In this document: positions 31,272 to 59,509 of the stretch, in pieces | How positions within the stretch are numbered: position 1 is the stretch's first letter | How the letters are laid out: each line of letters opens with the position of its first letter | Sequence record: NC_070871.1 | Reading direction: 5' to 3' (one strand) | Length of the DNA stretch: 64,000 bases | DNA from: Escherichia phage PGN829.1 | The notes under the pieces: model-generated | What the model was told of the DNA's origin: nothing | The model's input: only the letters and a program-made list of their open reading frames with translations | Databases searched by the model: none | Made by a program: the position numbers and the translations under genes

Positions 31272-33926
31272 ATGGGCTTATTCAGTGGGAAGACCAAAGT
31301 ATACGTAGCATCCTCTGTCTATAACATGGCAGGGGATATACATAAACGCCCTAACTATATGAAGACTGTAGTTATAGGTAATATTGTTTCCAATACAGGA
31401 TTCACTATGGCAGATACTATCTCTGATAGTTATCTGAATGGGCCAGGTATTCGTATGCGACTGTTCTCCAGCTGGAGTAAGAACCACTATGATTCAGTAG
31501 TTGGTATGGCTGGTTCTTCATTGGGTGTATTGGCTAAGATTGACCCTACCGTTATAGAGGGTCAAATTACACCCCCTGCTGGTGAATCAGTCTATGTTCA
31601 GGCAGCAGAGATTGGCTTTGCTGACTTTGAGCAATGGTGTGACCAGTATCTTTATGAGAATGCTCCAAGTCGAATCATGGAACGATTCGACATAGATATT
31701 GATGAAGATACTAATGAAATCACTATGACCTCCTTAGATGGAGGCTCTACTATTACATTCACACCTACTAACTTTGAACCAGGTGCTTTATATCTCTATG
31801 CTGATTACTCATTCTATAAGTCCCCTTCTACTAATCCTCCGGTAGTAGGACCGACTACTGTCTATGATGATGAGGATGACTTACCTTCCACTTTGTTATG
31901 GACTACCGTCTCAAGTGATACGACGGCTAACACAACCAATCTTACTAAGACTATACATACTCATTCTGTTTACTCTGATGGCAGACCGGATGAAGACAGT
32001 ACTGTCACAGAACCAAGTGTGGATAACTGGAACTCTTACGTTAAAGTTTATCGTAGAGGATTCACTGAGAAACCCGATGATGTGACTGTAGTTGTATCTG
32101 ACAGGGTAATGACTCATACAAAATTTGGTGAGATTCAATCCAGTACTTCTGTAACTACTAATGTGGTTGATATAGGTGGAGGTGTTACTCGTACAGATAC
32201 AATCACTACAACCACAGAGACACTGGTTCGTAAGTACTCATCCCAGACTACCCGTACTGATACCGAGATGACTGCTGTTAGTACACCTAAAATGCTTATT
32301 TATAAGCAGAACTCCGGTAACGTTGCACTGGATTCTTTGTTCGAGACTGAAGCTACTGATAACCGATTCTACCCATTCATTCCAATCAGGAATGATAAAC
32401 AATGGGTAGAGAATGACCCAATCTACCCTCACTGTAAGAAAGCCCTTTATAAAGCTACTGGTGGAAAAATTGATAAAGTAGTCACAGAGCTTAAGAAGAA
32501 TGATGATATAGGAGATATTCAGTACATCTATGGTTCATTCGGTGTATCCCTTAATACTCCTGAGGATACTGCTAAGGAATATATCTACCGTTTCTTTCAG
32601 ATGGCTACTGAAGCATTCCCACCTGACCCAACCTACCCAACACTGGAAGCAGTGATTGCAGGCTATCAGGCAGCAAACGATGCAGTTGATGCATACGTAG
32701 AATGGTGGAACAGGCAGGAAGGTCAGATTGTTGGAACACCTCCACCATTACCAGAATACCCAGTCATACCTAAGCGTGAGTTTAGGGTACATAGTAATAA
32801 GCAATACAAGTACGATATGACTATTGGCTGGAACTATGTATCTGAAACTACCCATTCAGGACAAGCATGGTCTGGTGCTAAGCAAGGACAACTTCGAGCC
32901 AGATATGCGGGAGATATAACGCTTACTCGTAAGAACATACGTACTGCTAGTAACTCTGGTTCAGTTAAGAAGTTGGAAGTTACTACTACATTTTACTCTA
33001 TGCAGGAGTATGAGTTACTTTGGCAGGATGGTAATGACACTTACCGTAAACTTAGAGTATTGGGTCTAAACCACAATAACAGGGTATATAAGAATAAGTC
33101 AGTGCATATTGACGTTGCCGAAGCAATGGGGGATGCAGAGGAGAGTGGGTTCATTATCCCGCTGCACACCAATATTTACCGTTCAATGTCACTGGTTCGT
33201 AGTACACAGCTGTCTACTGCCTGTTCCTACTTAGTGATGAACTCATATAAGAAAGTTAAGCAGAAGTGGTACACAACATCTGCCTTTAAGATTGTGGTTG
33301 TTGTAGTTGCTGTCGTTGTATCTGTATTTACTATGGGTGCTGGTGGTGCAGGTATTCTTGGGGCATACGGTGCAGTTGGTGCATCCCTGGGTTTTGTTGG
33401 ATTAGCTGCTGTAATAGTTGGTGCTGTAGCAAACGCAATTGCTGCAATGATTCTGGTATCTATTATCACAAAAGTATCCACTTCATTGTTCGGTGATAAG
33501 CTAGGTTTTATCATTGCTGCTATTGCCTCAATGGTAGCCATGAACGTTGGTACTGCTTTGTCTACTGGTACATCCTTATCCTCCCTAGCTGGTGAAATGA
33601 TGAATGCTCAAAACATCATGCAGCTTACCAGTTCGGTAGGTAATGGTATTAGTCAGTATATTAATGCATCCACGGCTGCTACTATTCAGAAAGCAGAGAA
33701 TATAATGCAGCAGTACAATACTGATATGATGGCAATCAATAAGCAGTATGAAGAAATGTTTGGTACTGCTGGACAGGGTGTGATTGACCCCATGCAATTC
33801 GTGTCAATGGAGTCGTTGGATTCATTCTTGTCACGTACTCTCATGACTGGTTCAGATATAGCTGACTTGTCCTTAGACATGGTTGGCAACTACTCTGATA
33901 TGACTCTTAATACTGACCTTGTTTAA
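31272..33926 (+). CDS. large internal virion protein with Gly/Ala-rich membrane-spanning region
   Basis: 884 aa; C-terminal hydrophobic glycine-zipper segment (VVVVVAVVVSVFTMGAGGAGILGAYGAVGA...). Confidence 0.5.
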   Translation: MGLFSGKTKVYVASSVYNMAGDIHKRPNYMKTVVIGNIVSNTGFTMADTISDSYLNGPGIRMRLFSSWSKNHYDSVVGMAGSSLGVLAKIDPTVIEGQITPPAGESVYVQAAEIGFADFEQWCDQYLYENAPSRIMERFDIDIDEDTNEITMTSLDGGSTITFTPTNFEPGALYLYADYSFYKSPSTNPPVVGPTTVYDDEDDLPSTLLWTTVSSDTTANTTNLTKTIHTHSVYSDGRPDEDSTVTEPSVDNWNSYVKVYRRGFTEKPDDVTVVVSDRVMTHTKFGEIQSSTSVTTNVVDIGGGVTRTDTITTTTETLVRKYSSQTTRTDTEMTAVSTPKMLIYKQNSGNVALDSLFETEATDNRFYPFIPIRNDKQWVENDPIYPHCKKALYKATGGKIDKVVTELKKNDDIGDIQYIYGSFGVSLNTPEDTAKEYIYRFFQMATEAFPPDPTYPTLEAVIAGYQAANDAVDAYVEWWNRQEGQIVGTPPPLPEYPVIPKREFRVHSNKQYKYDMTIGWNYVSETTHSGQAWSGAKQGQLRARYAGDITLTRKNIRTASNSGSVKKLEVTTTFYSMQEYELLWQDGNDTYRKLRVLGLNHNNRVYKNKSVHIDVAEAMGDAEESGFIIPLHTNIYRSMSLVRSTQLSTACSYLVMNSYKKVKQKWYTTSAFKIVVVVVAVVVSVFTMGAGGAGILGAYGAVGASLGFVGLAAVIVGAVANAIAAMILVSIITKVSTSLFGDKLGFIIAAIASMVAMNVGTALSTGTSLSSLAGEMMNAQNIMQLTSSVGNGISQYINASTAATIQKAENIMQQYNTDMMAINKQYEEMFGTAGQGVIDPMQFVSMESLDSFLSRTLMTGSDIADLSLDMVGNYSDMTLNTDLV

Positions 33927-34383
33927 CAGGAGAATCCCCATGGATTTGTCATTCTTAACAGGCAACCCAACTCCACAGCCAGCTGCTATGTCTTGGATGC
34001 CTAATAACAATCAGAACTTTAATACCCCGACTATGAACTATAACCCAGGTGCAACTATTGGTATGGGGGCAAATACAGGAGTAGCCTCCCCTACTTCTTT
34101 CCTGTCTGGTTCAGCTGATCAGTTGGGATTGAATGTACCTACCTTCCAGTTAGGCTTGGGTGCACTTGGTTCATTAGCTAATATCTACAGTGGTTTCCAG
34201 GCTAATAAGTTAGCCAAAGACCAGTTGAACTTTACCAAAAGTGTTACTAACACTAACCTGAATAACCAGATTAAGTCTTATAACACTGCACTGGAAGACC
34301 GTGCTCGTAGTCGTGCTACGGCAGAAAACCGTGACCAGTCTACTGCTGATGCTTATATTGCAGCTAATAAACTAACTCGTTAA
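33919..34383 (+). CDS. virion protein (hypothetical)
   Basis: Late-operon ORF, Asn/Gly-rich. Confidence 0.4.
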   Translation: MFNRRIPMDLSFLTGNPTPQPAAMSWMPNNNQNFNTPTMNYNPGATIGMGANTGVASPTSFLSGSADQLGLNVPTFQLGLGALGSLANIYSGFQANKLAKDQLNFTKSVTNTNLNNQIKSYNTALEDRARSRATAENRDQSTADAYIAANKLTR

Positions 34384-34455
34384 TAGGAAACCATCATGGC
34401 TCATTGAGTTTTGGGTATTGTTTAGTTAGTATGTGCCAATACTAGGAGAACTGCT

Positions 34456-34992
34456 ATGAAACAATATCCAAACTCAAATATTAACGTTCAGTGGAAACCT
34501 GCTCATATGGTTAATTCTGGCTGCAAATTTTCTACTAAAACCGAAGATGGTAGTAAGACATGCTCTGCATACATAAGATGGTGGGGTATGTTTATGCGGT
34601 GTTACAATCCTACCAATCCTGGTTATCCTCAATATGGTGCTAAAGGAGTTGTTGTTAGCAAAGAGTGGGGTAACTACCAAGACTTTGCTCAATGGTACTA
34701 TGATTCCTGTTTTCTTTTAGGCATTGATCCGGAAAACAATAACTTCCAACTGGATAAAGATAATGGGCCTGTCCCTGAGTATAGTCCAAAAGTTTGTAAA
34801 CTAGTCCCAGTGTCTGACAATGTAGCTAAGGCTAATAGTAAATCACACTGGTACATAAACCCCAATGGTGACATTGTGGAAATCATTAATTTAAACAAAT
34901 TCTGCCGTGAGCATGGGTTAAGTCGCAAACAAATGTATCGTTTGCGGGATGGAACTTGTGAATCTCACCGAGGATGGAGGCTTTACGTATGA
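34456..34992 (+). CDS. possible homing-endonuclease-like protein inserted in structural module
   Basis: IRWWGMFMRCYNPTNPGYPQYGAKGVVVSKEW resembles the N-terminal motif of phage HNH-type endonucleases; AT-rich, Cys/Trp-rich. Confidence 0.3.
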   Translation: MKQYPNSNINVQWKPAHMVNSGCKFSTKTEDGSKTCSAYIRWWGMFMRCYNPTNPGYPQYGAKGVVVSKEWGNYQDFAQWYYDSCFLLGIDPENNNFQLDKDNGPVPEYSPKVCKLVPVSDNVAKANSKSHWYINPNGDIVEIINLNKFCREHGLSRKQMYRLRDGTCESHRGWRLYV

Positions 34993-36953
34993 GTCAGATA
35001 ACCTGGCGTAATGTTGATGCACCTAACTTTTCTGGAGTTGGTGACAGCATTCGCACATTTGGCAATATGATTGGTAACGCTACCTCCGGCTTAAGTGATG
35101 CACTGGGTAATTTCCAGAACGCTGCTAAGCAGGAGGCTGGCAATGCCGTCATGATGAATGCTATGCAATACCAAGACCCTACTGAGTATCGTAATGCTTT
35201 GGCATCTGGTGCATTGTTCCAGGGGGTTGACCCTTCACTTGTAAGTCAACGCACTCTCCAGAATCTGGATGAGCGAGCAGGTACTCTTCTGACTCAGCAA
35301 GGTCAGCAGGGAGCCAATGACTACAATGCTTATCGTTTTGGTCGTTTACAGGACACTGACTCTGCATTAGATAATGCATCCCCAGCTATTCGTTTATTGT
35401 CTGAGGCTTATCAGTCTGGTGACCAGAATCGTATTAATGCTGCACTGGGTCAGACACGAGAGGCATTATCGGCACTCCCTGCTGACCAACAGTTGGAGAT
35501 GTTAGGACGTCTTCAAGGTCAAGGTGGTGCTGCTATTAACCAAGCACAAAACCGTTTTGATTTGGGTGTGGCTCAACGTAACGATGCGGATAGTCAGGCT
35601 GCTTTAGGTGTAATGTCACAAATTACCCGTGGTGCTGAGAACCCCAATGATGCTCGTTTGTTGGCAGAAGCATATAGTAAGAACCTTTCCCCTGTTGCAC
35701 AGGCACGTTTACAGGAAATGCTTGCTCGTGCATACCCGGGTGTTTACGGCAATAATGTTGGTGCTACATCCGCTCCCGGTACTGCTGGTACTCGTCAGGG
35801 TTCTCCTTATGATGTTACTTATCAGTTTGCTGGTACATCTACCCCTATTACTCAAATGAGTATTGGTGATGTAATTAAACATCAGGACGTTATGAAGACT
35901 AATCAGGGTGCTTCACCTGTTGGTGCATTCCAGATTAACCAAGCTACTCTGCAAGACTTTGCCCCCAAAGTTCTTGGTTCAGATTGGAAGAATCAGCCTC
36001 TTTCCCCTGAGAACCAGGAGAAGATTGGTAAGGCTATCTTCGAGGCTCGTAAGAACGGCAATCTTAAAGATACCTGGGCTGCTTTACCTAACTCTACCCC
36101 AGGTGCTTATAAGGATATGACTTGGGAACAGATTAAACCTGTTATTGCCCAAGCTGAAGTAGGGGCTGACCCATTTAATCTGACTCAGAATAGTCAAGGG
36201 AATCAGGCAGTATCTACCTTGGCTCAGGGTATGATTGGTACTCGCTCTATGCAGGATAATACCGGTAGTCTTAATACCGATTTCCTGGGTACTGTCACCG
36301 ATAATACTCCAGTAGGTGAGATTGCTAATCGTCTGCTGGATGGTGACTTTAAGGGTGCTGACCGTAACTGGGTACTTAACAGATTAACTGATATTTCTCA
36401 ACGTGGGAATATGTCACCAGCTATGGCTGCTGCTGTTATGCAACGTGCACAGACCGGTGTACCAGAAGGATACATTAGCCGTGCTATTGATGCGGTTAAC
36501 CCATTCATTACTAATGAAGCCGGTAATGGTATGCGTCTTAATGACCGTCTGGTAGATCAGTTAATTGAGGGTGTACAACGAGGTGAACCACTGGAAGGAA
36601 GTGTACGTAATCTTGGGCGTGCTCAAGCTATGCAGAACATTCAGGCAGCACAGACTGCTTATGATGCTGCTGTAGCTGCACTGACAAATACCCAGAACAA
36701 GATTAACACTGGACAAACTGGACTTACTGCATTGTTACCTGCACGTCAGGAAGCTGTTACTAAAGCTGCTGCAATGCTTCAAGCTGCACAAGCCCAGGTA
36801 CAAGCAGACCCAGCTAATCTGGCTCCAAGAGGTTTTCGGTCACAGGCTAGCGTGGACAGAGCACGAGCCAAGGAAGATGAAGAACGTGCTGCACGTTACC
36901 TACGTCAGGCACAAGGTTTGCCTGAGTATATGCAACCAAGACAAAATCGGTAA
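34974..36953 (+). CDS. internal virion protein (hypothetical)
   Basis: 659 aa, immediately upstream of vRNAP. Confidence 0.45.
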   Translation: MEALRMSQITWRNVDAPNFSGVGDSIRTFGNMIGNATSGLSDALGNFQNAAKQEAGNAVMMNAMQYQDPTEYRNALASGALFQGVDPSLVSQRTLQNLDERAGTLLTQQGQQGANDYNAYRFGRLQDTDSALDNASPAIRLLSEAYQSGDQNRINAALGQTREALSALPADQQLEMLGRLQGQGGAAINQAQNRFDLGVAQRNDADSQAALGVMSQITRGAENPNDARLLAEAYSKNLSPVAQARLQEMLARAYPGVYGNNVGATSAPGTAGTRQGSPYDVTYQFAGTSTPITQMSIGDVIKHQDVMKTNQGASPVGAFQINQATLQDFAPKVLGSDWKNQPLSPENQEKIGKAIFEARKNGNLKDTWAALPNSTPGAYKDMTWEQIKPVIAQAEVGADPFNLTQNSQGNQAVSTLAQGMIGTRSMQDNTGSLNTDFLGTVTDNTPVGEIANRLLDGDFKGADRNWVLNRLTDISQRGNMSPAMAAAVMQRAQTGVPEGYISRAIDAVNPFITNEAGNGMRLNDRLVDQLIEGVQRGEPLEGSVRNLGRAQAMQNIQAAQTAYDAAVAALTNTQNKINTGQTGLTALLPARQEAVTKAAAMLQAAQAQVQADPANLAPRGFRSQASVDRARAKEDEERAARYLRQAQGLPEYMQPRQNR

Positions 36954-37029: not shown

Positions 37030-40000
37030 TTGAACAGGAAACATGCTATGTCAACATTTGACCGTCTGGCAGGTTTCGCAGACAGCATCACTAATGCTAA
37101 GCAAGTCGATGTCTCTACTGCAACCTCTCAGAAGCAAGCTGCACAAGGGCAAAGCCCTTTCCAATTAACCCCAGAGAATGCTTACAATCTCCAAACTGGT
37201 CGTGTAGGTAATCTTGGAATTGGTGCATTCGAACCAGGTTCACTTCAGGCAGATTTCACTCAAGCCTCCCCATTAGAAATCCTTAATAAATACGGTAATG
37301 AGCAAGGTCTACAGATTATTAATAGCCGAGCTAATGCTGCTGATGTTGTACGTCAGGACTTATCTAAACAACGTACTAACGCGGAAGCATTTGGTGATAC
37401 TCTTTCTGGTGTTGGTCTTGGTGTTGCTAATACCCTTGGGGGCATTGCTGCTCTTGGTACAGGTCTGGTCAATGATAATGCCGGAGCATCCATTGCTTCC
37501 GGGATGGATTGGCTGAATGAAGGTGTACACAATTTACAGTCTGATGCACTGAATGCTACCCGTAAGGTTGTTCAGAATCAGAACCAGATTTCTGCACAAA
37601 AGAACCAGAAGCTCTATGAAGAAGATATTAAAAATGGGGAGAGCAGTTTGGTTGCCTCCCTGTCTCGCATTGGTCGTGATGCTTTTGATTCTGTTGCTAA
37701 TACACTTGATAATGGTATGGCTGCTACCGATGGGCTGAGTGAAGGTGTTGGTTCTCTCTTTACTGGTGGTCCATTAATTCGTGGTGTATCCGCACTCGGT
37801 AAAGTAATGGTAGGTGGAGATAAAGCCGTTAAAGGTATTACCCTAGCTGCTGAGTTAGGTTCACGTCCTGCACAGATTGCATTGTCTGCTGGTCGTGTTG
37901 CTGCACCTGCTATTGCAATTGGTGGTATGGAAGCTGGTGGTGCATACCAGCAGACTGCTTCTGAAATCATGAAGATGTCCCATCAAGAATTGGCAAGTAA
38001 GTCTCCTGTTTATCAACAACATATCGCTGATGGTTTATCTCCTGATGAAGCACGTCGTCAAACTGCATCTGAAACGGGTATCATTGCTGCTAGCTTAACT
38101 GCTCCAGTTGCTGCTGCTACTGGTCCACTGGTATCTAAGTTTGAACTTAACCCACTTAAGGTAGGTTCACTGGCTGGTGCTGGCTCTAACATGCTTCGTG
38201 AAACCGTAGAAGAAGGTATTCAGTCTGGTACAAGTCAGTTTGCACAGAACAAGGCAATTCAGGGTAATGTAGATGCTAAGCGTGATCTGCTTAAAGGTGT
38301 CGGTGAGCAAGCAGGTCTTGGTGCACTCTATGGCTTCGGTAGTGCTGGTGTTTCTCAGGCTCCTGGTGCAACTGTTAAAGCTGTTGGTGCTTCTGCTGGC
38401 CCTGCTCTTCGTACTACCCTGGCTGGTGCTTCTCTGGTTGGTAGTGCATTAGCAAAAGCTGCTTCTCCTATTACTAACATCCTGGTTCAACGTGGTGAAG
38501 AAGTTGCTAAGCGTAATGAACAAGCATCCCCTGTATCTGATGCCACTGTTAATGCTGCTGCACAAGAAGCTACTGCTCAGGCAGAACAAGCACAAGCAAC
38601 TGTACAGGAAGCAGTAGATGCAATGGATATTTCTCCTGAAGAGAAAGCTGCTGCTACTCAGTATGCTGCTGACTTAACTCAGGCAATGAAGTTTGACCCA
38701 GTAGAGTTAGAGCAAGCTAATCCAGCAATCCGTGAAGCCGTTTCTGGTTCCACTAACCGTGTTGAAGCTATTCAGAAGATGGCTGACCTGGTTAATACTG
38801 CCGAAGACCCTAACGTTCAAATGGAAGCTGCAATCCAGATGTATGACAATATCATGTCTATGGATAGCTTCATTAACCGTGACCCAGGTGCTCTGGCTAA
38901 CCTGGAACAAGGTTCCCCTGCTGCTGCAATCGTTGACCAGTTCTCTGGTCTGATGGCTAACGTTCAGAATACACCTAAAGTACTTCGTGCATTCCGTGCT
39001 ATTCATTCTATGATTCAGGAACAGGCTGAAGCAGGTAAACTGAAAGCTACTGAAGAAGCCAACCAAGCCCAAGCAAACAATATTGCTATGGCTGCTGATA
39101 TGTCTCCAGAAGTACTGGATGCTGATTCAGTGAACATGATTCTGAAACATGCAAGTGAAGGTAAGATTACACTGGGGAATCATCAGCGTGCTGCCCTGCA
39201 ATCGGCTGCTGCCTTGTTACAGGGTGCACGAGAATTTGATGCTAAAGCAGAAGAACTAGGCTTACGTCCTCAAGACATTGTTAGTAAACAGATTAAAACC
39301 GACGAGTCTCGTTCTAATGAAGGTCAGTACTCTGCGTTGCAACATGCTAAACGCATTCGTTCTGCGTACAACTCTGGTAATTTCGATTTGGCTTCCGCTT
39401 ACCTCGACGACTTTATGAAGTTCGCCCAGCACATGCAGAATAAGGTCGGAGCGTTGAATGAGCATCTGATTTCTGGGAATGCGGATAAGAATAAGTCTGT
39501 CCATTATCAGGCTCTTACTCCCTCCCGTGAATGGGTACGTAGTCGTACTGGTCTTGGTGTCAATCCGTATGATACCAAGTCGGTTAAGTTTGCCCAGCAA
39601 GTAGGACTGGAGGCCAAAACCGTAGCTGATATTGCTAACGCACTTGCTACGGCTTACCCGGAGCTTAATGTTTCTCATGTGAAGGTTACTCCATTAGATT
39701 CACGTCTGGACAAGCCTGCTGCCCAGGTAGTTAAAGAGTTCCGTCAAGGTGGTCTTGATGCCACTCAGTCTCAACAGACCAATGAACCAGTGAATCAGGT
39801 TGATGAAACTCCTGCACCAGCGCAAGAGACTACTACTACTGTACAGCCTAAAGCTAAACCAGTGGTAGAAAATAAGACTGTTCCTGTTAAAGAGGCTAGT
39901 TCAAAAGCAGAAGAAGTCTCTACTACTAAGTCTGAAACAGTAGATGCTACCCTCACCAATGAGGATACCACTCAAAAAGTAGCTGAAACTAAAACGGAAA

Positions 40001-43000
40001 TGGAAACAGTTTTCCCTGTCTATAACAATGACAAGACACCGAACCAGTTCCTGAAATCATTTACCCTGCCGGAAGAACCTAAGTCTCGCACCATTGGTTC
40101 TGAATCCCCTTTGACTGATATTAAGCAAGCACTGTCTTCTACTGCACGCTTTGAAGCATTCACTCAAAAAGAAAATAACGCTCTCACAAGTGATGTGATT
40201 AAGCGTTATCAGGACTTAATGGGCTTTGGTGAAACTCTGAAGACTACTCTGTCTGATCGTCTGGCTAAGTTTCTTGCTAATAAGAACGTTGGTAAACGCT
40301 TTGCAGAAGGCACAGAGGCTAACCGTTGGGTAGGTGGTAAGTTACTTAATATCGTAGAGAAAGACGGAGACACCTTTAAGTTCAATGACCAGTTGTTAGA
40401 GACTGCTGTACTTGCTGGTCTGCAATGGCGACTGACTGCTACACAGAATGCTGCTGTTAAAGACATGAAAGATGTAGCTGCTATTACTGGTGTAGAGGCA
40501 TCTCTGTTACCTGAAGGTATTCTGGCTGACTTCGAGAATGCTCAGACTCTGGTTGAAGCTACTAACTCACTGGCTCAAAAGATTGAATCTTACTGGGGTT
40601 TGAATCGCAATCCAAATGCACCACTGGGTTATACCAAAGGTATCCCAATGGCAATGGCTACGGAGATTCTGTCTTCTTTCATTGAGATGGGTGAAGTTAA
40701 AGAATCTATGCTGGATGTGTCTGAGTTTGACCCAGACTCTAATAAGACCGTCGGTCTGTATACCATTGAGAAGCTGGATGATAACGATGCCATTAACAAG
40801 TTCCCTACTGCTATCGAGGAAGCTGTTCTCGTAGAACCAGAAGAGAAAATGTACTTTGGTGATGATATTCCTTCCGTGGCTCAAACTCAGTTACGTAACC
40901 CTGCTGTTAAGAATACCCCAGAGCAGAAAGCTGCTCTTAAAGCAGAACAGGCTACCGAGTTCCGTGTACACATGCCGATGGTTAACTTCTATGAAGCATT
41001 AGGTCGTGACAACATTCTGGAACTGATGGGTGCTGGTACTCTTAATCCTGAACTGCTGAACGTGAACACTGCTAAGTCACTGGAGGGTAAAAACCTGTCA
41101 GTGTCTATGGCATATGATTCCCTGTTCGGTGTAATCAACCAGTTACAGGAACAGGAGAATGGTCTGGATACGCCTATTCACTATGGTTACAACATGACCC
41201 GTGTAGGTCGTATGCAGATGTTAGGTAAGAACAACCCACAATCCAGTAAACTGGTTCGTGAAGCAATTCTGCCAACCTTCTCTACTATTGACTTGAGTAA
41301 TGAAAATAGCCAAACATTCTCTGACTTCCAGCTAGGACTGGCTCAGGCATTGGGTATCAAGGTACATAACATGTCCCGTGAAGCTATGTCTGAAAAGTTG
41401 ACCAAGGCTCTGGAAGGTAATCTGAAACCTGCCGTTGATATGGTGGTTGAGTTTGATAAGTCTGGTCACTTACCAGCTAATGCAGTGGATATTCTGAAAA
41501 CATCTCTGGGCGGCGATAAATCATTCGTAGCTCTTATGGCTCTTATGGAATATGCCCGTTACCTGAACAGTGATGACCGTGCCAACTTTAATACCCCTCT
41601 GTACGTTGAAGCCGATGGTGTAACTAACGGACCAATCAACGCAATGGTATTAATGACCGGTGGTAAGTTCACTTCAGACTGGGTTAAGAATACTGCTAAA
41701 GGTGGCTTGTTCTTCGGTAAAGCTGGTAAGACTATGAATGAACATCGTTCACAGGATGACAGTGTTGACCTGTATGAAGCATCTACCAATGGTCTGCAAC
41801 AAGCACTTAATGAGTTACGTACTACTTACCGTAACAACGTTCCGGTTATGAACCAAATGAATCATCTTCAGAAGTTAATGGACCTGTTTATTAAAGACTT
41901 TAACCTGAATGAAGACGGTACTCTGGACCTGAAACGTGGTATCGCTAAAAACCCACTGACTATTACCATCTATGGTTCTGGTGCTCGTGGTATTGCTGGC
42001 AAGATGGTTAGTGCAATTACTGACACCATCTATGAACGCTTCAGTGATGTTCTGCAAGCTCGTGCTGCTGACCCTAGCATTTCCCCAGCTATGGCAATGT
42101 TTGGTAAGGAGGCTGCGTCTGAGGCTGATGCTCAGGCTATGCTGGATACTTTCCTTACTTCTATGGAAGCACTGACTGGTAATGTTCCAGTTATGCGTAA
42201 AGGTGAACTGTCTATTCAACAGGTAGAAGGTGCTCTGACTGGTAAGTTAGACCCTCAGAAGTTTACCGTATCAGGAAATGCTCTGAAGAACTTACAAGAG
42301 AACATGCTTCACCTGTTCGTTGAACCAATGCGTACTGGTATCCGTAATACTGTTGGTGAAGGTCTGATGCATTCTACTGAGAACTTGCAGAAGGCTACCC
42401 AGATTCAGTCACTGGTATTGCAGGATATGTTCCAGCAACGTGTCCAGGAGAAGCTAGCAGAAAAAGAAAAAGACCCAACATGGAAAAAGGGTGATTTCTT
42501 AACACAGAAAGAACTGAATGAAATCCAGGAATCATTATCCCCACTAGCTCCAATGATTGAGACTGGTTCACAGACTTTCTACATTGCTGGCAGTGAAAAT
42601 ACTGATGTTGCTAACCAAGTTCTGGCTACCAACTTAGATGATCGTATGCGTGTGCCAATGAGCATCTATGCTCCTTCACAGGCAGGTGTTGCAGGTATTC
42701 CTTTTATGACCATTGGTACTGGCGATGGCATGATGATGCAGACCCTTTCTACTATGAAAGGTGCTCCGAAGAATACCCTGAAAATCTTTGATGGTATGAA
42801 CATTGGTATCAACAACATCACTGATGCAAGTCGTAAAGCTAATGAGGCTGTATACACTTCCTGGCAGGGTAACCCTATCAAGAATGTCTACGACTCCTTC
42901 TCTAAGTTCATGAAGAATGTAGACTTCAGCAAACTGTCTGATGAAACCAAACAGGCTATCGCTAAATCTGCTCTGGAATATGACCAGCGTGAAGGTGCTA

Positions 43001-46000
43001 CCGATGACCTGTTACGTGTTGGTGCTGAACAGATTGAACGTAACCTGCGTAATATTGCTCTGGGTGTAGATATTCGTCACAAAGTAATGAACCAGGTACA
43101 GACTACTGTTGACCAGATGGCTGCTGTTGGTGCTCCTTATGTGAACAACGGTAAAATCTCTCTGGAAGGTCTGACCGTAGACCAACAAGTAGCTAAGCTA
43201 AATGAACTGTTCGATGCTGAATTAAACAAACGTCGTGATGCAGTACGTGCTGCTAAAGTAGAACCAGTGAAAGAAGTGCCAGCAATGGAACAGGTTGGTC
43301 GTGTACTGAAGTCTGGTGTACGCCTACTGTCTAATACTGCTATCTCTAAGCTGGCTAAAGAGATGTCTCCGGAACAGCAAGCAGTACTGAAAGAAGTACA
43401 GAAATCCCTTGCTGCTAAAGACTATAAGGTTGTTTACGGTACACCTTCCCAACTGGATGCTTATGCTATTGAGAAGAATATTACTCGCCCAGCACCAGAA
43501 GATATTGAAGCTGCTGAAGCTGGTAATGCGTATGGTTGGACTAACTTTGAAGATAAGACCATCTACTTAGTTACCCCTTCCTTAGAGACTCTGGTTCATG
43601 AATTGGTGCATGCTTCTACTTTTGAATCTGTACTGGCTCACTATGAGGGTACTCCTAATGAAGCGGTCCAGAACATTGAAGACCTGATGAACCAGTTCCG
43701 TGCTCTGGATGTTAAGGATGAATCCCCGGCAGTTCGGGAAGCATATGCAGATGCTCTTAATACTATTAACGGTCATTTATCTAATGGCTTTATTGAGCCA
43801 GCAATGGCTAAAGCTGCTGCACTGAATGAGTACATGGCATGGGGTTTAACCAACCGTGAACTGATTAGTAAGCAGAAGAAAACCACTGCACTTAAGACTA
43901 TGGTTCAGGCTGTATATGAAGCAATTAAACGTCTGGTATTCGGGCGTAAGAAAGCACCAGCTAATGCAGATGATATGTTCTCTGGCTTACTGTTTAACTC
44001 GTCCGTAGTTATGCGTGGGCAAGCTCCTACTGCTGCTGTAGTCAAAGATACTACTCTGTTCCATAACAAAACGTATGGTGACAATACTCGTCTGGAAGAG
44101 CTAGGGAAAACCTTCGATAAACTGATTACTGACTACATTGGTTCTGAACCAGTACAGCAAGTAATTCGTAAAGGTAAGTTCTCTGATGCAGTGGTTAATG
44201 CGACTAAAGTAACTCGTGATGTTCAGGCTCATGGCTTCACTATGAATATGCAGGAACAACGTCTCTTTACTAACATTGTTGCTGCTCTGGCTACTGAGGC
44301 TGCTATTAATCCTGCTGCTCTGGCTCGTGCGCAGGAATACTACACACATGTTACTAAGAACCTGACCGTTGAGTCATTCATGACTGACCCAGATAGTACT
44401 AACCCTGCTGACCGTTACTATGCACAGCAGAAGTTCGATACCATCATGGGTGCTAACAACATTGAGTTTGATTCACAAGGTCGTTCCTCCTTACTGCCTA
44501 CCTTTATTGGTCTGGCGATGGTAAGTGAAGAGGTACGTAAAGTGCTGGCTGATATTCCAGTTATGAAAGTAGACAAGAAATCTGGCAATACCGCTGATGC
44601 AATGCTGACTAACATCGGTACTGCTGCAATGGCTAGTCTGAATGCTCGTGTAGCAGGAGATACTAAAGCTACCAACGTACAGGAAGGTATGGATGCACTG
44701 GCTCAGACAATCATGCAGACCAGTCTTAATGCACAATCCTTCTATGATTCCGTTGCTACTCCTACGGGTAATGCTATTGATCGTGCTAACCAGTATCTGG
44801 TGGACTCTATTGATGTACTGTCTACCCGTGCTTTAGAAGGTGCTCGTGAAGTTGCAGCTAATACCAAGAACCCGTTGGTTAAAGGTGCTGCCCATGCTGC
44901 ACAATTAATAGCTGCTATTGCTACAGAGAAGAATGGTGCAATCGTAGCCGAAGGTGTTATGGCTGCAATGAACCAAGGTAAAGTATGGCAACCCTTTCAC
45001 GATCTGGTTAATGACTTAACTGGTCGTACTAAGAGTAATGCTTCTGTATATGATTTGATTAAGGCAGTGCGTGCCCAGGTACAGGCTGACCGTCAACAGT
45101 TCCGTGAACATCTGCCCACCACTATCGCATCTAAGTTCAGCCGTAAGCTGACTAATGATGAGTGGAAAGCAATGCATACCGGTATGGGTAAAACCGACTT
45201 AGCTGTTCTGCGTGACACTATGTCTCTGGCTGAAATTCGTGACCTGCTGACTGACCAGAAGATTGTTGACCGTGAGGTTAATAAACTGGAAGCAGATTTG
45301 CAGAAACAAGCTGGTCGTAACTGGCCTTTGATTAACCGTAAATCTAAGCAACTGGCTCAGTACATGATTAATGGAACAGTTGGTAATAACCTGCTGCGTA
45401 ATGCTACAGCAATCTCTCGTATGCTGGGTGAACGTCAGGCTGCACGTTCTACTGTAGACGTAGCTCAACTGGATAAACTGATTACTCTGTATGCACTGGA
45501 AGCAATGAGTAAAACTGACCGCGAGGTGTTATCTTCACTGGCTCAGACAGAGATTGAAGGCATGGACTTCGCTACTTCTTATCTGGTTGGTCAGCGTAAA
45601 GATGAAATGGCTAAAGCCAAATCTGATACTCGTGCAACTCTGAACCAGTACAAAGGGTATATTCCTGGTGAGACTAAACAGGGTGTTAACTTGATAGTTG
45701 CTGAAGATAGTCAGTTTGCTGATTTGATTGAGAAGTCCTATGTACGTCTGGGTACTTATCAGGGTAGCTCTGCTAATCGTGGTCCAGCACGTAGCTACTA
45801 CTTTGCACCGGTACAGGCACAGGCTCCATTCTCGCAAGGTATCTTACAGAACGTTCGCAATACTGCTGGTGGTGTAGACCTTGGTACAGGCTTTACGATG
45901 GGTACAATGGTAGCTGGTCGTATCACTGACAAGCCTTCTGTAGACCGTATCACTAAAGCACTGGCTCGCGGTGAACGTGGTAATGAACCACTGCTGCCTG

Positions 46001-57599: not shown

Positions 57600-57904
57600 T
57601 ATTCCCCCTTGGGAATCATGTTTGCCCGGAACTTTGGTTCAGACATCAGACCCAGGTTGCTAAGAGACAGATAAACAATGTCTTTCAAGTCAACTGAGGT
57701 GTCGAAACGCTGATCCAGACTAATCTTCAGTGAGTGATTGGCACGAGCCAAATCTTTATAAGTCACGTAAGGTTCATCAGTGAGTAACATTGTATTCATG
57801 GTAAGCAGAGAGCCATCATCCACTTTAGGAAGCTGAAAGATTACCTGTGCTGCTACCATCCAATGATATTTTCTGACTACGGTTTCTTTAGTACTTTTAG
57901 TCAT
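57599..57904 (-). CDS. hypothetical protein
   Basis: 101-aa ORF in replication operon. Confidence 0.35.
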   Translation of the reverse strand: MTKSTKETVVRKYHWMVAAQVIFQLPKVDDGSLLTMNTMLLTDEPYVTYKDLARANHSLKISLDQRFDTSVDLKDIVYLSLSNLGLMSEPKFRANMIPKGE

Positions 57905-58896
57905 GCGAATGCCTTTTGAATTATTTGATGAACTTCTTCTGGGGTAGCGTGATTTGGAATTTCAATCTCGTTAGCCCACGTTGGGTAAAACAAGGATAGT
58001 TCCCCACCCAAACCAACTTCTGGATGAGCAATGTCAGGATGGTCTTGCCAGTTAACGGCTTCGACCAGATGCTTGTTCGTGTACTGCAAGGTATCCATAT
58101 TGTCACGAATCATGAAGTATTGGGCATCATGAATATGAATACAAGGACGTATATCTAACCTGAACTCACTGGCTCTGACTTTACGCATAAACTCTGAGCC
58201 AGCACGGTTATTCAGTAAACACCAGCTTTGGCCTAATGCATTACCAGCAGTTCTGCCTTCTGCTTCTGCTTCATATGGAGTCTTACATGTCCCACGTAAA
58301 ACCTGAGCCAGTAAAGGAGTACGGACTCTCAAACCAAATGCAGCAGTTACATAACCAGTCTTAGCAGCTTCGTCTAGCTTAGCCTGAACCCAGGCATCAC
58401 TAACCGTATACATTTCGTGGTATCTGGACTCAATTAATTTAGCCTTCTCTTCCGAGAAGCCACAGTTTTTCATTAAGCCCATATAAGTTCCGCCGTAGGT
58501 CAGTAAGAAAGTAGGTGCTTTCGATTCGCTACGTAAGGCTTTATATTTTTTCTGTATAGAGTTGATGCTTTCTACAGAGTCATCAATATCCGGCATTTGT
58601 TCACCGAAATAAAATTTAGCTCTGAGTGAATGACCGTCAAACCCGTCAGTATACACACGCAATTTATTAGGGTCTTTGGTTGTTAGGGCTGATATGCGAT
58701 CCTCTAAGGACGCAAAGTCTAGCCCACAAAACAACCATCCACCCTCATAGTCAAAGCATTCAGATACTTGTTCCTGCATGCCATATTTACTAGCTAATTG
58801 TATTAACTCGTCATAGTCATCCAGGGTTACTCTATCCTTTATGCTAACTAATTTATTTAATAAGTCCTGCATTACGAAGTACCTTCTCCTGTTCAA
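57901..58896 (-). CDS. family A DNA polymerase, C-terminal palm part (split gene)
   Basis: Pol A motif A GLDFASLEDRI, motif B RSESKAPTFLLTYGG, motif C IHIHDAQ. Confidence 0.75.
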   Translation of the reverse strand: MNRRRYFVMQDLLNKLVSIKDRVTLDDYDELIQLASKYGMQEQVSECFDYEGGWLFCGLDFASLEDRISALTTKDPNKLRVYTDGFDGHSLRAKFYFGEQMPDIDDSVESINSIQKKYKALRSESKAPTFLLTYGGTYMGLMKNCGFSEEKAKLIESRYHEMYTVSDAWVQAKLDEAAKTGYVTAAFGLRVRTPLLAQVLRGTCKTPYEAEAEGRTAGNALGQSWCLLNNRAGSEFMRKVRASEFRLDIRPCIHIHDAQYFMIRDNMDTLQYTNKHLVEAVNWQDHPDIAHPEVGLGGELSLFYPTWANEIEIPNHATPEEVHQIIQKAFA

Positions 58897-59509
58897 CCAA
58901 GTTATTAGCTAATACATAAGCAATAACTGCATTCATAACAGTATCTAGATCTCTATCTACCCGGATTTCTATTCTCTTACCCAAATGGGTAATTCTACCT
59001 ACCCATTTATTTTTTGACTTACTGTAGCTAACGTAAGGAGTTGTACTCCAAACCCTTTTGTTAGTTTGTTGGGTACTTCTATTTGCCCATCTACAGTTGT
59101 CTGGAGAATATCCTTTATAGGCATCAATCCTGTCGATACTAAGACCTGCTGCATAACCAGAAGATAATGCCCAATCTCGGAAAGTTTCGTATGAATTTTT
59201 CCACTCATCGCAAACACTTATGCCCTTAGCCCCATATTTGTAATAAGTGGAACACTTTTCATTATGGCAGCGGTCAAGGATGCCGTAGTAAACCTTATAT
59301 AGTAGTTCCTTAGAACGACCATCTTTATAGTTACGTAGGCATTCTTTGTGTAAACATCCACAACTTCTTGTATGACCACTCTTTAATTTTTGATTGTTGA
59401 CTATAGTAGTATTCCCACAGTCACAAAGGCATTCCCAATGCTTTGCATAGTATTTGTCTTTGTGACTGAACCTGACTACAGTCAATCTATTAAATTTCTT
59501 TCCTATCAT
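58853..59509 (-). CDS. HNH homing endonuclease interrupting the DNA polymerase gene
   Basis: Cys cluster CLCDCG...CGCLH, HNH-like IDRIDAYKGYSPDNCRWANRSTQQTN; overlaps both polymerase pieces. Confidence 0.7.
   Translation of the reverse strand: MIGKKFNRLTVVRFSHKDKYYAKHWECLCDCGNTTIVNNQKLKSGHTRSCGCLHKECLRNYKDGRSKELLYKVYYGILDRCHNEKCSTYYKYGAKGISVCDEWKNSYETFRDWALSSGYAAGLSIDRIDAYKGYSPDNCRWANRSTQQTNKRVWSTTPYVSYSKSKNKWVGRITHLGKRIEIRVDRDLDTVMNAVIAYVLANNLVEQEKVLRNAGLIK

What the first reader, a model, noticed from the sequence alone, without database searches (positions are those of the whole stretch)
34456..34992. Possible endonuclease-like ORF inside the structural gene block
A 178-aa Cys/Trp/Arg-rich ORF sits between two virion protein genes. 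Its N-terminus (IRWWGMFMRCYNPTNPGYPQYGAKGVVVSKEW) resembles a motif common to phage HNH-type homing endonucleases, and its composition looks more AT-rich than its neighbours. It would be a fifth mobile endonuclease if confirmed.
Basis: inference. Interest (0 to 1): 0.4.

Follow-up and report, generated by a model that had tools for sequence, protein, structure and literature searches.

The report
Mobile homing-endonuclease gene in N4-like phage
The 178-aa ORF is a selfish, free-standing homing-endonuclease gene inserted into the very start of a virion-protein gene of an N4-like coliphage; this is an ordinary kind of element, but its nuclease domain lacks the usual catalytic histidine and looks like that of the restriction enzyme PacI.

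Summary
The ORF (34456-34992, +) is real and is very probably a free-standing homing endonuclease gene. The window is a Gamaleyavirus (G7C/N4-like) genome. The ORF lies in a 600-bp cassette (34404-35003) that replaces 7 bp at the start of virion gene gp51. Thirty-six of 37 well-aligned Gamaleyavirus records and 15 of 16 N4-species records lack it. Five known carriers have it at the same gp52|gp51 junction.

Its phylogeny disagrees with the backbone:
- vs VEc25 (genus Enquatrovirus): ORF 90% nt identical, flanks 66-76%.
- vs ST4: ORF 70%, flanks 90-95%.

Pfam and NCBIfam give no hit, and the canonical HNH histidine is absent. About 200 family representatives have D100-K101-D102...Y109...N122 and never His at 101. 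This mirrors PacI (D92-R93...Y100...N113), where a Tyr is positioned as the general base, so a PacI-like mechanism is inferred, not shown.

The GC dip is mild (z -1.3), and the protein is Cys/Trp-rich but not Arg-rich. Verdict: new member of a known kind; modest interest.

The parts
34404..35003 (+). 600-bp mobile cassette. It replaces the 7 bp AATTACA of the empty site ATGGCTCA|AATTACA|TGGCGTAATGTTGA (net +593 bp).
   Evidence: Alignment of the window, VEc25 and ST4 against the empty sites of VTCCBPA_322 and G7C. Junction sequences including N4 and PMBT57. Record spans of 2908 vs 3501 bp in about 35 relatives.
34396..34407 (+). Stub of the native gp51 start. The original gp51 RBS and ATG GCT CA now run into a TGA supplied by the cassette, giving mini-ORF M-A-H-stop.
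   Evidence: Direct reading. The same stub is present in all five carriers: ATGGCTCATTGA, ATGGCTCGTTGA or ATGTCTCATTGA.
34444..34448 (+). Shine-Dalgarno (AGGAG) of the endonuclease ORF, 7 nt upstream of its ATG.
   Evidence: Direct reading. GGAG-type SD sequences occupy the same place in VEc25, ST4 and L008; in L007 only a weaker GAG lies at that position.
34456..34992 (+). Homing-endonuclease-like ORF, 178 aa.
   Evidence: phrog_2081 'HNH endonuclease' at 6.7e-38. AF2 model with pLDDT 90.8. I-HmuI is the top structural match. dN/dS 0.04-0.15.
34561..34725 (+). Helical subdomain (aa 36-90) carrying the family signature Y..W..M..RCY......Y..YG..GV.V...W..F..F. It occupies the place of the HTH-like domain that precedes the nuclease motif in PacI.
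   Evidence: Conservation table. Helices 37-50 and 74-88 in the model. PacI domain description in PMC5714182.
34738..34839 (+). Beta-beta-alpha-metal (His-Me finger) nuclease core, aa 95-128. It contains D100, K101 (in place of the HNH His), D102, Y109 (omega loop), C114 and N122.
   Evidence: Strands 97-100 and 115-118 and helix 119-127. Residue conservation: D 183/200, K 187/200, Y 192/193, N 166/171, never His at 101. In-register alignments to I-HmuI D74-H75...N96 and PacI D92-R93...Y100...N113.
34840..34983 (+). C-terminal I-HmuI-type NUMOD-like helix-turn-helix DNA-binding domain (aa 129-176).
   Evidence: Family profile vs PDB 1u3e residues 108-171, E 9.3e-9. Homologs hit Pfam PF22083. 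phrog_925 'HTH DNA binding protein' on aa 144-173.
34989..35003 (+). Rebuilt, recoded start of gp51 (ATG AGT CAG ATA ACC = MSQIT, vs the native ATG GCT CAA ATT ACA = MAQIT). It overlaps the ORF stop (ATGA). A GGAGG inside the ORF's conserved G-W-R codons lies 8 nt upstream.
   Evidence: The sequence is identical in the window, VEc25 and L008. ST4 has ATGCCTATTACC and L007 has ATGATTACATGG.
34989..36953 (+). gp51 homolog (N4 66-kDa virion protein), the invaded host gene. Its likely true start is 34989, not 34974.
   Evidence: Annotated homologs in G7C and N4. N-terminal alignment.

Best explanation
ORF178 is a free-standing (intron-less) homing endonuclease gene carried on a 600-bp cassette that has invaded the first codons of the virion-protein gene gp51 of N4-like phages.

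Inferred mechanism. During co-infection, the protein binds the conserved 33-bp sequence spanning the gp51 start codon in cassette-less genomes (CATGGCTCAAATTACATGGCGTAATGTTGATGC). It binds through its C-terminal I-HmuI-type helix-turn-helix and its N-terminal helical subdomain, and it cuts or nicks near the insertion point with a beta-beta-alpha-metal nuclease core. Recombinational repair from the cassette-bearing genome then copies the cassette in.

Why carriers are probably immune. In carriers the site is split by 600 bp, and the rebuilt gp51 start differs at 5 of 15 bases. The cassette keeps the essential gene working by supplying a new start codon, overlapped with the endonuclease stop (ATGA), and a Shine-Dalgarno.

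Nuclease core. It is a His-less variant of the HNH/His-Me finger. Asp100 and Asn122 would hold the metal. The invariant omega-loop Tyr109 (helped by Lys101) would take the role of the missing histidine, as a Tyr does in the restriction enzyme PacI.

What is shown: the insertion anatomy, the sporadic distribution, the horizontal transfer, purifying selection, the fold and the residue conservation.
What is inferred: DNA cleavage, the identity of the target site and the Tyr-based chemistry.
For: Distribution:
- 36 of 37 well-covered Gamaleyavirus records lack about 593 bp exactly here.
- 15 of 16 N4-species records that are 98-99% identical to VEc25 also lack it.
- IMG/VR holds 6 intact targets and 0 occupied junctions of this type.

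Site specificity: all five carriers (window, VEc25, ST4, L008/P0002, L007/P0008; 57-94% aa identity) have the gene at the gp52|gp51 junction upstream of the vRNAP gene.

Discordant phylogeny: vs VEc25 the ORF is 90.1% nt identical and the flanks 66-76%. vs ST4 the ORF is 70% and the flanks 90-95%.

Target: the 33-bp site is identical in N4, PMBT57, G7C and VTCCBPA_322 although their flanks differ, and it is split and recoded in carriers.

Functional constraint: dN/dS is 0.04 (window-VEc25) and 0.07-0.15 for the other measurable pairs.

Protein:
- phrog_2081 6.7e-38 and four other 'endonuclease' PHROGs.
- AF2 pLDDT 90.8.
- 134 BFVD matches, many named homing endonuclease.
- C-terminal domain homologous to I-HmuI residues 108-171, E 9e-9.

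Family niche: relatives occur fused to GIY-YIG or HNH_3 modules and inside thymidylate synthase. phrog_2081 members sit in group I introns of phage DNA polymerase genes, where InterPro detects no nuclease domain (PMC11878797).

Active site: D100, K101, Y109 and N122 are near-invariant. They align with PacI D92, R93, Y100 and N113. PacI uses Asp and Asn for the metal and a Tyr as general base (PMC4081073; PMC5714182).
Against: - No cleavage assay exists for this protein. I also found no report of one for any close family member.
- Pfam and NCBIfam give no hit.
- The canonical catalytic His is missing. In some His-Me finger groups that goes with loss of activity (PMC5714182).
- The sequence link to PacI is weak. 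It is E 0.13-0.14, and only via the Arg-type paralog subfamily. The Lys-type profile does not detect PacI above shuffles. hhalign gives P about 0.2.
- ORF178 lacks PacI's two Cys4 zinc sites.
- Cassette boundaries between genera are very tight (8 and 14 nt of shared sequence), so no co-conversion tract is visible to confirm repair-mediated homing.
- dS of 0.6 between the window and VEc25 alleles means the transfer is not recent.
Confidence: 0.8

Rival explanations
1. It is a domesticated or inactive endonuclease relic. The beta-beta-alpha domain has lost catalysis (no His) and the protein now acts only as a sequence-specific DNA-binding protein, for example a regulator of late genes or an inhibitor of competing phages. 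It would spread by ordinary recombination, not by its own cleavage.
For: His is absent from the HNH position in the whole family. Two His-Me finger groups without His or Tyr are inactive DNA binders (PMC5714182). No Pfam nuclease model matches. InterPro detects only DNA-binding domains in phrog_2081 proteins (PMC11878797).
Against: D100, K101, Y109 and N122 are near-invariant across about 200 divergent representatives. These are the residues that correspond to PacI's metal ligands and general base. Family members occupy classic homing niches such as group I introns in DNA polymerase genes and thymidylate synthase. The distribution is strictly site-specific, sporadic and discordant, as expected of active homing.
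Confidence: 0.12
2. It is an ancestral accessory or virion-associated gene of N4-like phages that most lineages have lost by deletion. ST4's record labels the region 'structural protein'.
For: In L008 and L007 the ORF's divergence tracks that of its flanks (77% vs 75-76%; 65% vs 63-66%), as vertical descent would give. It is co-transcribed with, and translationally coupled to, structural genes.
Against: Empty sites in two genera share one identical, intact gp51 start. Repeated precise deletions restoring the same 7 bp are implausible. The ORF is more similar across genera (90%) than the backbone (66-76%), and less similar within the genus (70% vs 90-95%). The fold is nuclease plus HTH, not a virion protein. 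The ST4 'structural protein' label belongs to an over-extended gp51 annotation; the ORF itself is unannotated there.
Confidence: 0.05
3. It is the ORF of a group I intron or an intein interrupting gp51, spliced out at the RNA or protein level.
For: Relatives of the family are intron-encoded or embedded in thymidylate synthase. The insertion lies inside the gp51 coding sequence of the empty allele.
Against: Rfam finds no intron or other RNA family in 33900-35400 at E <= 1. The 5' spacer has no significant structure, z -1.0. The native start is closed by an in-frame TGA after 3 codons, and a complete new gp51 start is supplied, so no splicing is needed. The ORF has its own SD, start and stop.
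Confidence: 0.03

Closest known systems
I-HmuI (Bacillus phage SPO1 intron-encoded HNH homing endonuclease, PDB 1u3e)
   Different: I-HmuI has the general base H75, whereas ORF178 has K101. I-HmuI's N-terminal NUMOD4 beta-sheet is replaced here by a helical subdomain. I-HmuI is intron-encoded, whereas ORF178 is free-standing. The nuclease cores show no significant sequence similarity.
R.PacI (His-Me finger group 20, PDB 3ldy/3m7k)
   Different: PacI is a homodimeric restriction enzyme with two Cys4 zinc sites and an 8-bp palindromic target. ORF178 has no such Cys clusters, has an added I-HmuI-type HTH, and sits in a homing context. Sequence similarity is not statistically significant (E 0.13-0.14 via the paralog subfamily; none from the Lys-type profile).
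phrog_2081 'HNH endonucleases', e.g. those encoded in group I introns of Bastillevirinae DNA polymerase genes (PMC11878797)
   Same: Best profile match (6.7e-38). The domain content is the same, with only DNA-binding domains recognised by InterPro. Both are in a homing-type genomic context.
   Different: Those are intron-encoded in Bacillus phages and usually have a longer N-terminal domain. ORF178 matches only profile positions 93-249 of 433, is free-standing, and is in a coliphage structural operon.
Free-standing homing endonuclease genes of T-even phages (seg and mob genes; from general knowledge, not tested here)
   Same: They are intron-less endonuclease cassettes inserted between or at the edges of conserved phage genes. 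They are sporadically distributed and spread during co-infection.
   Different: seg genes are GIY-YIG and mob genes are canonical HNH. They often cut at a distance, producing co-conversion tracts. Here the exchanged segment is bounded within 8 and 14 nt of the insertion, and the cassette rebuilds the 5' end of the invaded gene.
The two other endonuclease-like ORFs of this window (58853-59509 and 4674-5267, both on the - strand)
   Same: They have the same His-less motif with Arg (IDRID...GYSPDNCRW...Q..N and LDRLD...GYSLDN...N). The first also shares the helical subdomain (family HMM E 4e-18). Both are sporadic among relatives.
   Different: Their DNA-binding modules differ (zinc ribbon plus AP2-like tail; endonuclease-VII-like N-terminus plus NUMOD1). 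Their targets differ (DNA polymerase I gene; RNA polymerase subunit genes). RefSeq already labels them HNH endonuclease.

Membership tests
Free-standing homing endonuclease gene | Present/absent polymorphism at one fixed site among closely related genomes | tested here: met
   36 of 37 Gamaleyavirus and 15 of 16 N4-species records have the empty site. All five carriers have the gene at the same gp52|gp51 junction.
Free-standing homing endonuclease gene | Gene phylogeny discordant with that of the host genome (horizontal spread) | tested here: met
   ORF 90% vs flanks 66-76% (VEc25). ORF 70% vs flanks 90-95% (ST4).
Free-standing homing endonuclease gene | Conserved target sequence in empty alleles that is disrupted or altered in carriers | tested here: met
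   The 33-bp site is identical in N4, PMBT57, G7C and VTCCBPA_322. In carriers it is split by 600 bp, and the rebuilt copy differs at 5 of 15 bases. That this is the recognition site is inferred.
Free-standing homing endonuclease gene | Site-specific cleavage of the empty allele and super-Mendelian inheritance in crosses | not testable with these tools
   Needs enzyme assays and phage crosses.
HNH / His-Me finger (beta-beta-alpha-metal) superfamily | Beta-beta-alpha fold | tested here: met
   [not shown]
HNH / His-Me finger (beta-beta-alpha-metal) superfamily | Catalytic His (general base) at the end of strand 1 | tested here: not met
   K101 in ORF178. In the family the position is K 187, R 5, other 8 of 200, and never His. 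It aligns with I-HmuI H75.
HNH / His-Me finger (beta-beta-alpha-metal) superfamily | Metal-binding Asn/His in the helix and an acidic residue before the general-base position | tested here: met
   N122 (166/171) aligns with I-HmuI N96 and PacI N113. D100 (183/200) aligns with D74 and D92.
HNH / His-Me finger (beta-beta-alpha-metal) superfamily | Match to curated HNH models (Pfam HNH, HNH_3 and others; NCBIfam) | tested here: not met
   0 families at E <= 10 in both libraries.
PacI-like His-less His-Me finger (group 20 of PMC5714182) | Tyr in the omega loop substituting for the His, with Asp and Asn metal ligands | tested here: met
   Y109 (192/193) in Y-S-P aligns with PacI Y100 in Y-S-P. D100/N122 align with D92/N113. 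The catalytic role is inferred from the PacI literature.
PacI-like His-less His-Me finger (group 20 of PMC5714182) | Statistically significant sequence or profile homology to PacI | tested here: inconclusive
   [not shown]
PacI-like His-less His-Me finger (group 20 of PMC5714182) | Two structural Cys4 zinc sites | tested here: not met
   ORF178 has 7 scattered Cys and no CxxC pairs. Only C49 and C114 are conserved in the family.
I-HmuI-type NUMOD-like DNA-binding domain (Pfam PF22083) | Profile match to the I-HmuI C-terminal domain | tested here: met
   Family profile vs 1u3e residues 108-171, E 9.3e-9. Homologs P0009, P0010, P0031 and P0034 pass PF22083. ORF178 alone is below Pfam's threshold.
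Group I intron-encoded endonuclease | ORF embedded in a self-splicing intron RNA | tested here: not met
   No Rfam match at E <= 1 in 33900-35400. gp51 has an intact rebuilt start.
Virion structural protein (label in the ST4 record) | Conserved presence in related virions | tested here: not met
   Absent from about 50 relatives. The fold is nuclease plus HTH.

The most novel reading that the evidence does not exclude
The large phage 'HNH endonuclease' family to which ORF178 belongs has 12,219 cluster representatives at E <= 0.001, some of them matching only through the shared C-terminal module. It includes phrog_2081 and the D-R-x-D paralogs. Its members may be homing enzymes that have uniformly replaced the His general base of the His-Me finger by Lys or Arg and use an invariant omega-loop tyrosine instead. 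That chemistry is so far documented only for the restriction enzyme PacI. If true, PacI would be an offshoot of this phage homing-endonuclease lineage (or the reverse), and thousands of proteins in which domain databases see no nuclease domain would be explained.
Probability: 0.45. Interest if true: 0.5.

Novelty: new member of a known kind. Interest (0 to 1): 0.33.

Why it matters
- Annotation. The gene is 'hypothetical' in VEc25 and unannotated in ST4, where gp51 is mis-started. It should be called a homing endonuclease and gp51 re-started at the rebuilt ATG.
- Phage biology. It shows DNA exchange between the genera Enquatrovirus and Gamaleyavirus at a defined site. It is a likely agent of marker exclusion and competition in mixed infections of therapeutic N4-like coliphages.
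- Enzymology. It offers a rationale for why a very large 'HNH endonuclease' family escapes HNH models, and a testable PacI-like Tyr mechanism.
- Engineering. The cassette shows how a selfish gene can sit inside the start of an essential gene by rebuilding its start codon and ribosome-binding site.

Tried and rejected
- Pfam and NCBIfam scans of ORF178 gave no hit even at E 10.
- A single-sequence search of PDB sequences gave only chance hits.
- The Lys-type nuclease-domain profile vs the PDB gave no nuclease hit.
- hhalign of the family nuclease domain vs PacI and vs the I-HmuI N-terminal part was not significant (P 0.19 and 0.10), although the catalytic residues came out in register.
- The beta-beta-alpha-only HMM vs PacI scored no better than 2000 shuffles.
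- Recovering the PacI gene from genome contigs with a 38-aa fragment failed because the query was too short. The PacI sequence (residues 13-124) was obtained instead from a padded PDB query.
- The PacI structure paper (PMC2886031) is not held.
- Rfam found no intron or other RNA. The promoter/terminator scan found nothing above chance. Folding of the 5' spacer gave z -1.0.
- IMG/VR has no exact match to the occupied right junction.
- A literature search for VEc25 found nothing relevant.
- The structural-protein, intron/intein and ancestral-gene-loss readings were considered and rejected for the reasons given under rival explanations.

Full report
**1. What is there.** The window is a G7C-like (Gamaleyavirus, Schitoviridae) N4-like coliphage genome. 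Its best backbone match is Escherichia phage VTCCBPA_322 at 94.5%. Around the finding the gene order is:
- gp53 (31272-33926)
- gp52, the 16.5-kDa virion protein (to 34383)
- the 178-aa ORF (34456-34992)
- gp51, the 66-kDa virion protein (to 36953)
- the 3456-aa virion RNA polymerase (37030-47400)

The ORF has an ATG start preceded by AGGAG (34444-34448). Its TGA stop overlaps an ATG (34989) that opens gp51.

**2. Composition.** GC of the ORF is 0.395, against a mean of 0.428 (sd 0.025) over 45 genes of the window. That gives z -1.34. It is the fifth lowest overall and the lowest in the + strand structural block. GC3 z is -0.66, and codon adaptation is not among the 8 lowest genes. Cys (3.9% vs 0.9%) and Trp (3.9% vs 1.1%) are enriched. 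Arg is not (4.5% vs 4.3%). Composition alone would not have made the case.

**3. Presence and absence.**
- A 3.5-kb query centred on the ORF matches 37 phage records over at least 80% of its length. Only ST4 matches throughout. The other 36 (including RefSeq duplicates) match in two or three pieces and lack about 593 bp.
- By tblastn only two records hold a close homolog: VEc25 (94% aa) and ST4 (67% aa).
- VEc25 is classified in a different genus (Enquatrovirus, species N4). Fifteen other N4-species records that are 98-99% identical to it in the flanks have the empty site.
- Protein-database searches add two more carriers from assemblies, P0002 (78% aa) and P0008 (57% aa). Both have the gene between the gp52 and gp51 homologs, upstream of a vRNAP gene.
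- IMG/VR holds six contigs with the intact target and none with this type of occupied junction.

The gene lineage is thus rare, sporadic and tied to one site.

**4. Anatomy of the insertion.**
- Empty sites of both genera read ...gp52 stop, SD, ATG GCT CA|A ATT ACA| TGG CGT AAT GTT GAT GC..., and are identical over 33 bp.
- In the window the sequence after ATGGCTCA (34396-34403) continues TTGA..., which closes the native gp51 frame after three codons (M-A-H-stop, 34396-34407).
- About 50 nt later come the SD and the endonuclease ORF.
- At its end the cassette supplies ATG AGT CAG ATA ACC (34989-35003). This is a recoded copy of the gp51 start with 5 changes in 15 bases (MAQIT becomes MSQIT). 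After it the sequence rejoins TGGCGTAATGTTGA.
- The cassette is therefore 34404-35003: 600 bp replacing 7 bp.
- All five carriers have the same design: the three-codon stub, and a rebuilt gp51 start overlapping the ORF stop. The overlap is ATGA in four carriers and 20 nt in ST4.
- A GGAGG or GGAGA lies inside the conserved G-W-R codons of the ORF. It is 8-9 nt upstream of the new gp51 ATG in the four E. coli-phage-type carriers.
- There is no promoter or terminator of its own above chance, no Rfam family and no significant spacer structure. The gene is free-standing and co-transcribed with the late operon.

**5. Horizontal transfer and selection.** Nucleotide identity of the window to other carriers:

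| Compared with | ORF | Flanking genes |
|---|---|---|
| VEc25 | 90.1% (left spacer 87%) | gp53, gp52, gp51 and vRNAP 5' end: 66-76% |
| ST4 | 70% | 90-95% |
| L008 | 77% | 75-76% |
| L007 | 65% | 63-66% |

- For VEc25 and ST4 the ORF identity disagrees with the flanks in opposite directions. For L008 and L007 it tracks the flanks.
- The segment shared across genera is bounded exactly by the 8 nt ATGGCTCA and the 14 nt TGGCGTAATGTTGA. Outside these, each carrier has the sequence of its own genus.
- This fits a break at or very near the insertion point with little resection. It also means no co-conversion tract is visible.
- dN/dS is 0.04 for window-VEc25 (dN 0.024, dS 0.60) and 0.07-0.15 for the other pairs with measurable dS. 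gp52 gives 0.16-0.32.
- The ORF is therefore a constrained, functional gene, and the inter-genus transfer is not very recent.

**6. What the protein is.**
- Pfam and NCBIfam give nothing.
- PHROGs gives phrog_2081 'HNH endonuclease' at 6.7e-38, over profile positions 93-249 of 433, plus four further endonuclease families and an HTH family at the C-terminus.
- An exhaustive HMMER search finds 12,219 cluster representatives at E <= 0.001 and 668 at 1e-10.
- The only Pfam domain in full-length relatives is PF22083 (I-HmuI NUMOD-like). The same C-terminal module is also found behind GIY-YIG and NUMOD4+HNH_3 domains, and one relative is embedded in thymidylate synthase.
- With a 57-sequence alignment AlphaFold2 gives pLDDT 90.8.
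- Foldseek finds I-HmuI as the only significant PDB match (E 5e-4). It finds 134 viral models, many named homing endonuclease.
- The family profile hits I-HmuI residues 108-171 at E 9e-9, so the C-terminal about 50 aa are its helix-turn-helix DNA-binding domain.

**7. The active site.**
- The model has strands 97-100 and 115-118 followed by helix 119-127, which is a beta-beta-alpha unit.
- In about 200 representatives the conserved residues are D100 (183/200), K101 (187/200; never His), D102 (181/200), Y109 (192/193), C114 (185/191) and N122 (166/171).
- With no gap between Y109 and N122, the profile alignment places N122 on I-HmuI's metal ligand N96. With the same spacing, D100-K101 falls on D74-H75.
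- Two other ORFs of the window carry the same motif with Arg: IDRID...GYSPDNCRW...Q..N and LDRLD...GYSLDN...N.
- A profile of that Arg-type subfamily (R 120/120, Y 117/120) hits only two sequences in the whole PDB set: PacI (E 0.14) and I-HmuI (E 0.46). Both hits are on the catalytic motif, with the Arg opposite H75 of I-HmuI and R93 of PacI.
- PacI reads VDRSDSFEGYSPQNARLACFICN.
- The literature states that PacI lacks the catalytic His. A Tyr in the omega loop takes its role, and one Asp and one Asn bind the metal (PMC5714182; PMC4081073).
- Only Y100 lies in that loop, and it aligns with Y109 in a shared Y-S-P.
- I therefore infer a PacI-type, Tyr-assisted mechanism with D100 and N122 as metal ligands.

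The limits are clear. The Lys-type profile does not detect PacI. hhalign is not significant. ORF178 lacks PacI's zinc sites. I could not inspect model coordinates.

**8. Context in the literature.** PMC11878797 reports that phrog_2081 proteins are encoded in group I introns of Bastillevirinae DNA polymerase genes, and that InterPro sees only DNA-binding domains in them. This places the family in a classic homing niche. It also agrees with a nuclease domain that escapes standard models. I found no paper describing the gp52|gp51 insert.

**9. Verdict.**
This is a mobile, free-standing homing-endonuclease gene, and one of at least three endonuclease-like ORFs in the window.
- It is a new member (unannotated or 'hypothetical' in public records) of a known kind.
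- The points of some interest are its exact rebuilding of the invaded gene's start, the cross-genus transfer, and the His-less, PacI-like catalytic motif shared by a very large phage family.
- Cleavage, target identity and chemistry remain to be shown experimentally.

Noticed in passing
window 58853-59509 (-), flanked by 57901-58896 and 59506-61323: A 218-aa ORF of the same family (Arg-type motif IDRID...GYSPDNCRW, with an N-terminal zinc ribbon and an AP2-like tail) splits the DNA polymerase I gene into two ORFs. Only about 5 of 88 matching phage records (U1G, phi G17, ST4) carry it, and most relatives have an uninterrupted polymerase. RefSeq labels it HNH endonuclease.
   Followed up: partly
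window 4674-5267 (-): A 197-aa ORF with an endonuclease-VII-like N-terminus (phrog_1035, 6.5e-31), the His-less motif LDRLD...GYSLDN, and a NUMOD1 domain. It lies between RNA polymerase subunit genes. It is present in G7C (annotated putative HNH homing endonuclease), Bas96 and Moonfish, but the region is patchy among relatives.
   Followed up: partly
window 34396-34407, and the same place in L002, L003, L007 and L008: All five carriers keep the native gp51 ribosome-binding site and start codon as a three-codon mini-ORF (MAH*, MAR* or MSH*) ending in a TGA that the cassette supplies. Whether this stub has a role, for example in unloading or reloading ribosomes ahead of the endonuclease ORF, is unknown.
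   Followed up: no
window 34970-34991: The Shine-Dalgarno for the rebuilt gp51 start (GGAGG) lies inside the codons of the endonuclease's conserved C-terminal G-W-R motif. One stretch therefore serves both the protein motif and translation of the invaded gene. The ORF listing starts gp51 at 34974, but homology puts the start at 34989.
   Followed up: partly
L002 (Escherichia phage ST4, OM982646) 2964-3515 and 3457-5457: The ST4 record does not annotate its copy of the endonuclease ORF. It starts gp51 36 nt too early, inside that ORF, and labels it 'structural protein'. VEc25 annotates its copy as a hypothetical protein.
   Followed up: yes
protein P0087 (440 aa): A family member lies in one reading frame with thymidylate synthase (Pfam Thymidylat_synt in two stretches, the best-scoring one at residues 272-440). 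This suggests an in-frame intron ORF or an intein-like insertion in thyA. A similar 564-aa 'thymidylate synthase' appears among the BFVD matches.
   Followed up: no
[not shown]
   Followed up: no
family alignment positions 68 and 72: Most family members have Cys at position 68 and His at position 72 (motif GV.VC..WH), in addition to the near-invariant C49 and C114. This hints at a CCHC-type metal site that ORF178 and its closest relatives (S68, G72) have lost.
   Followed up: no
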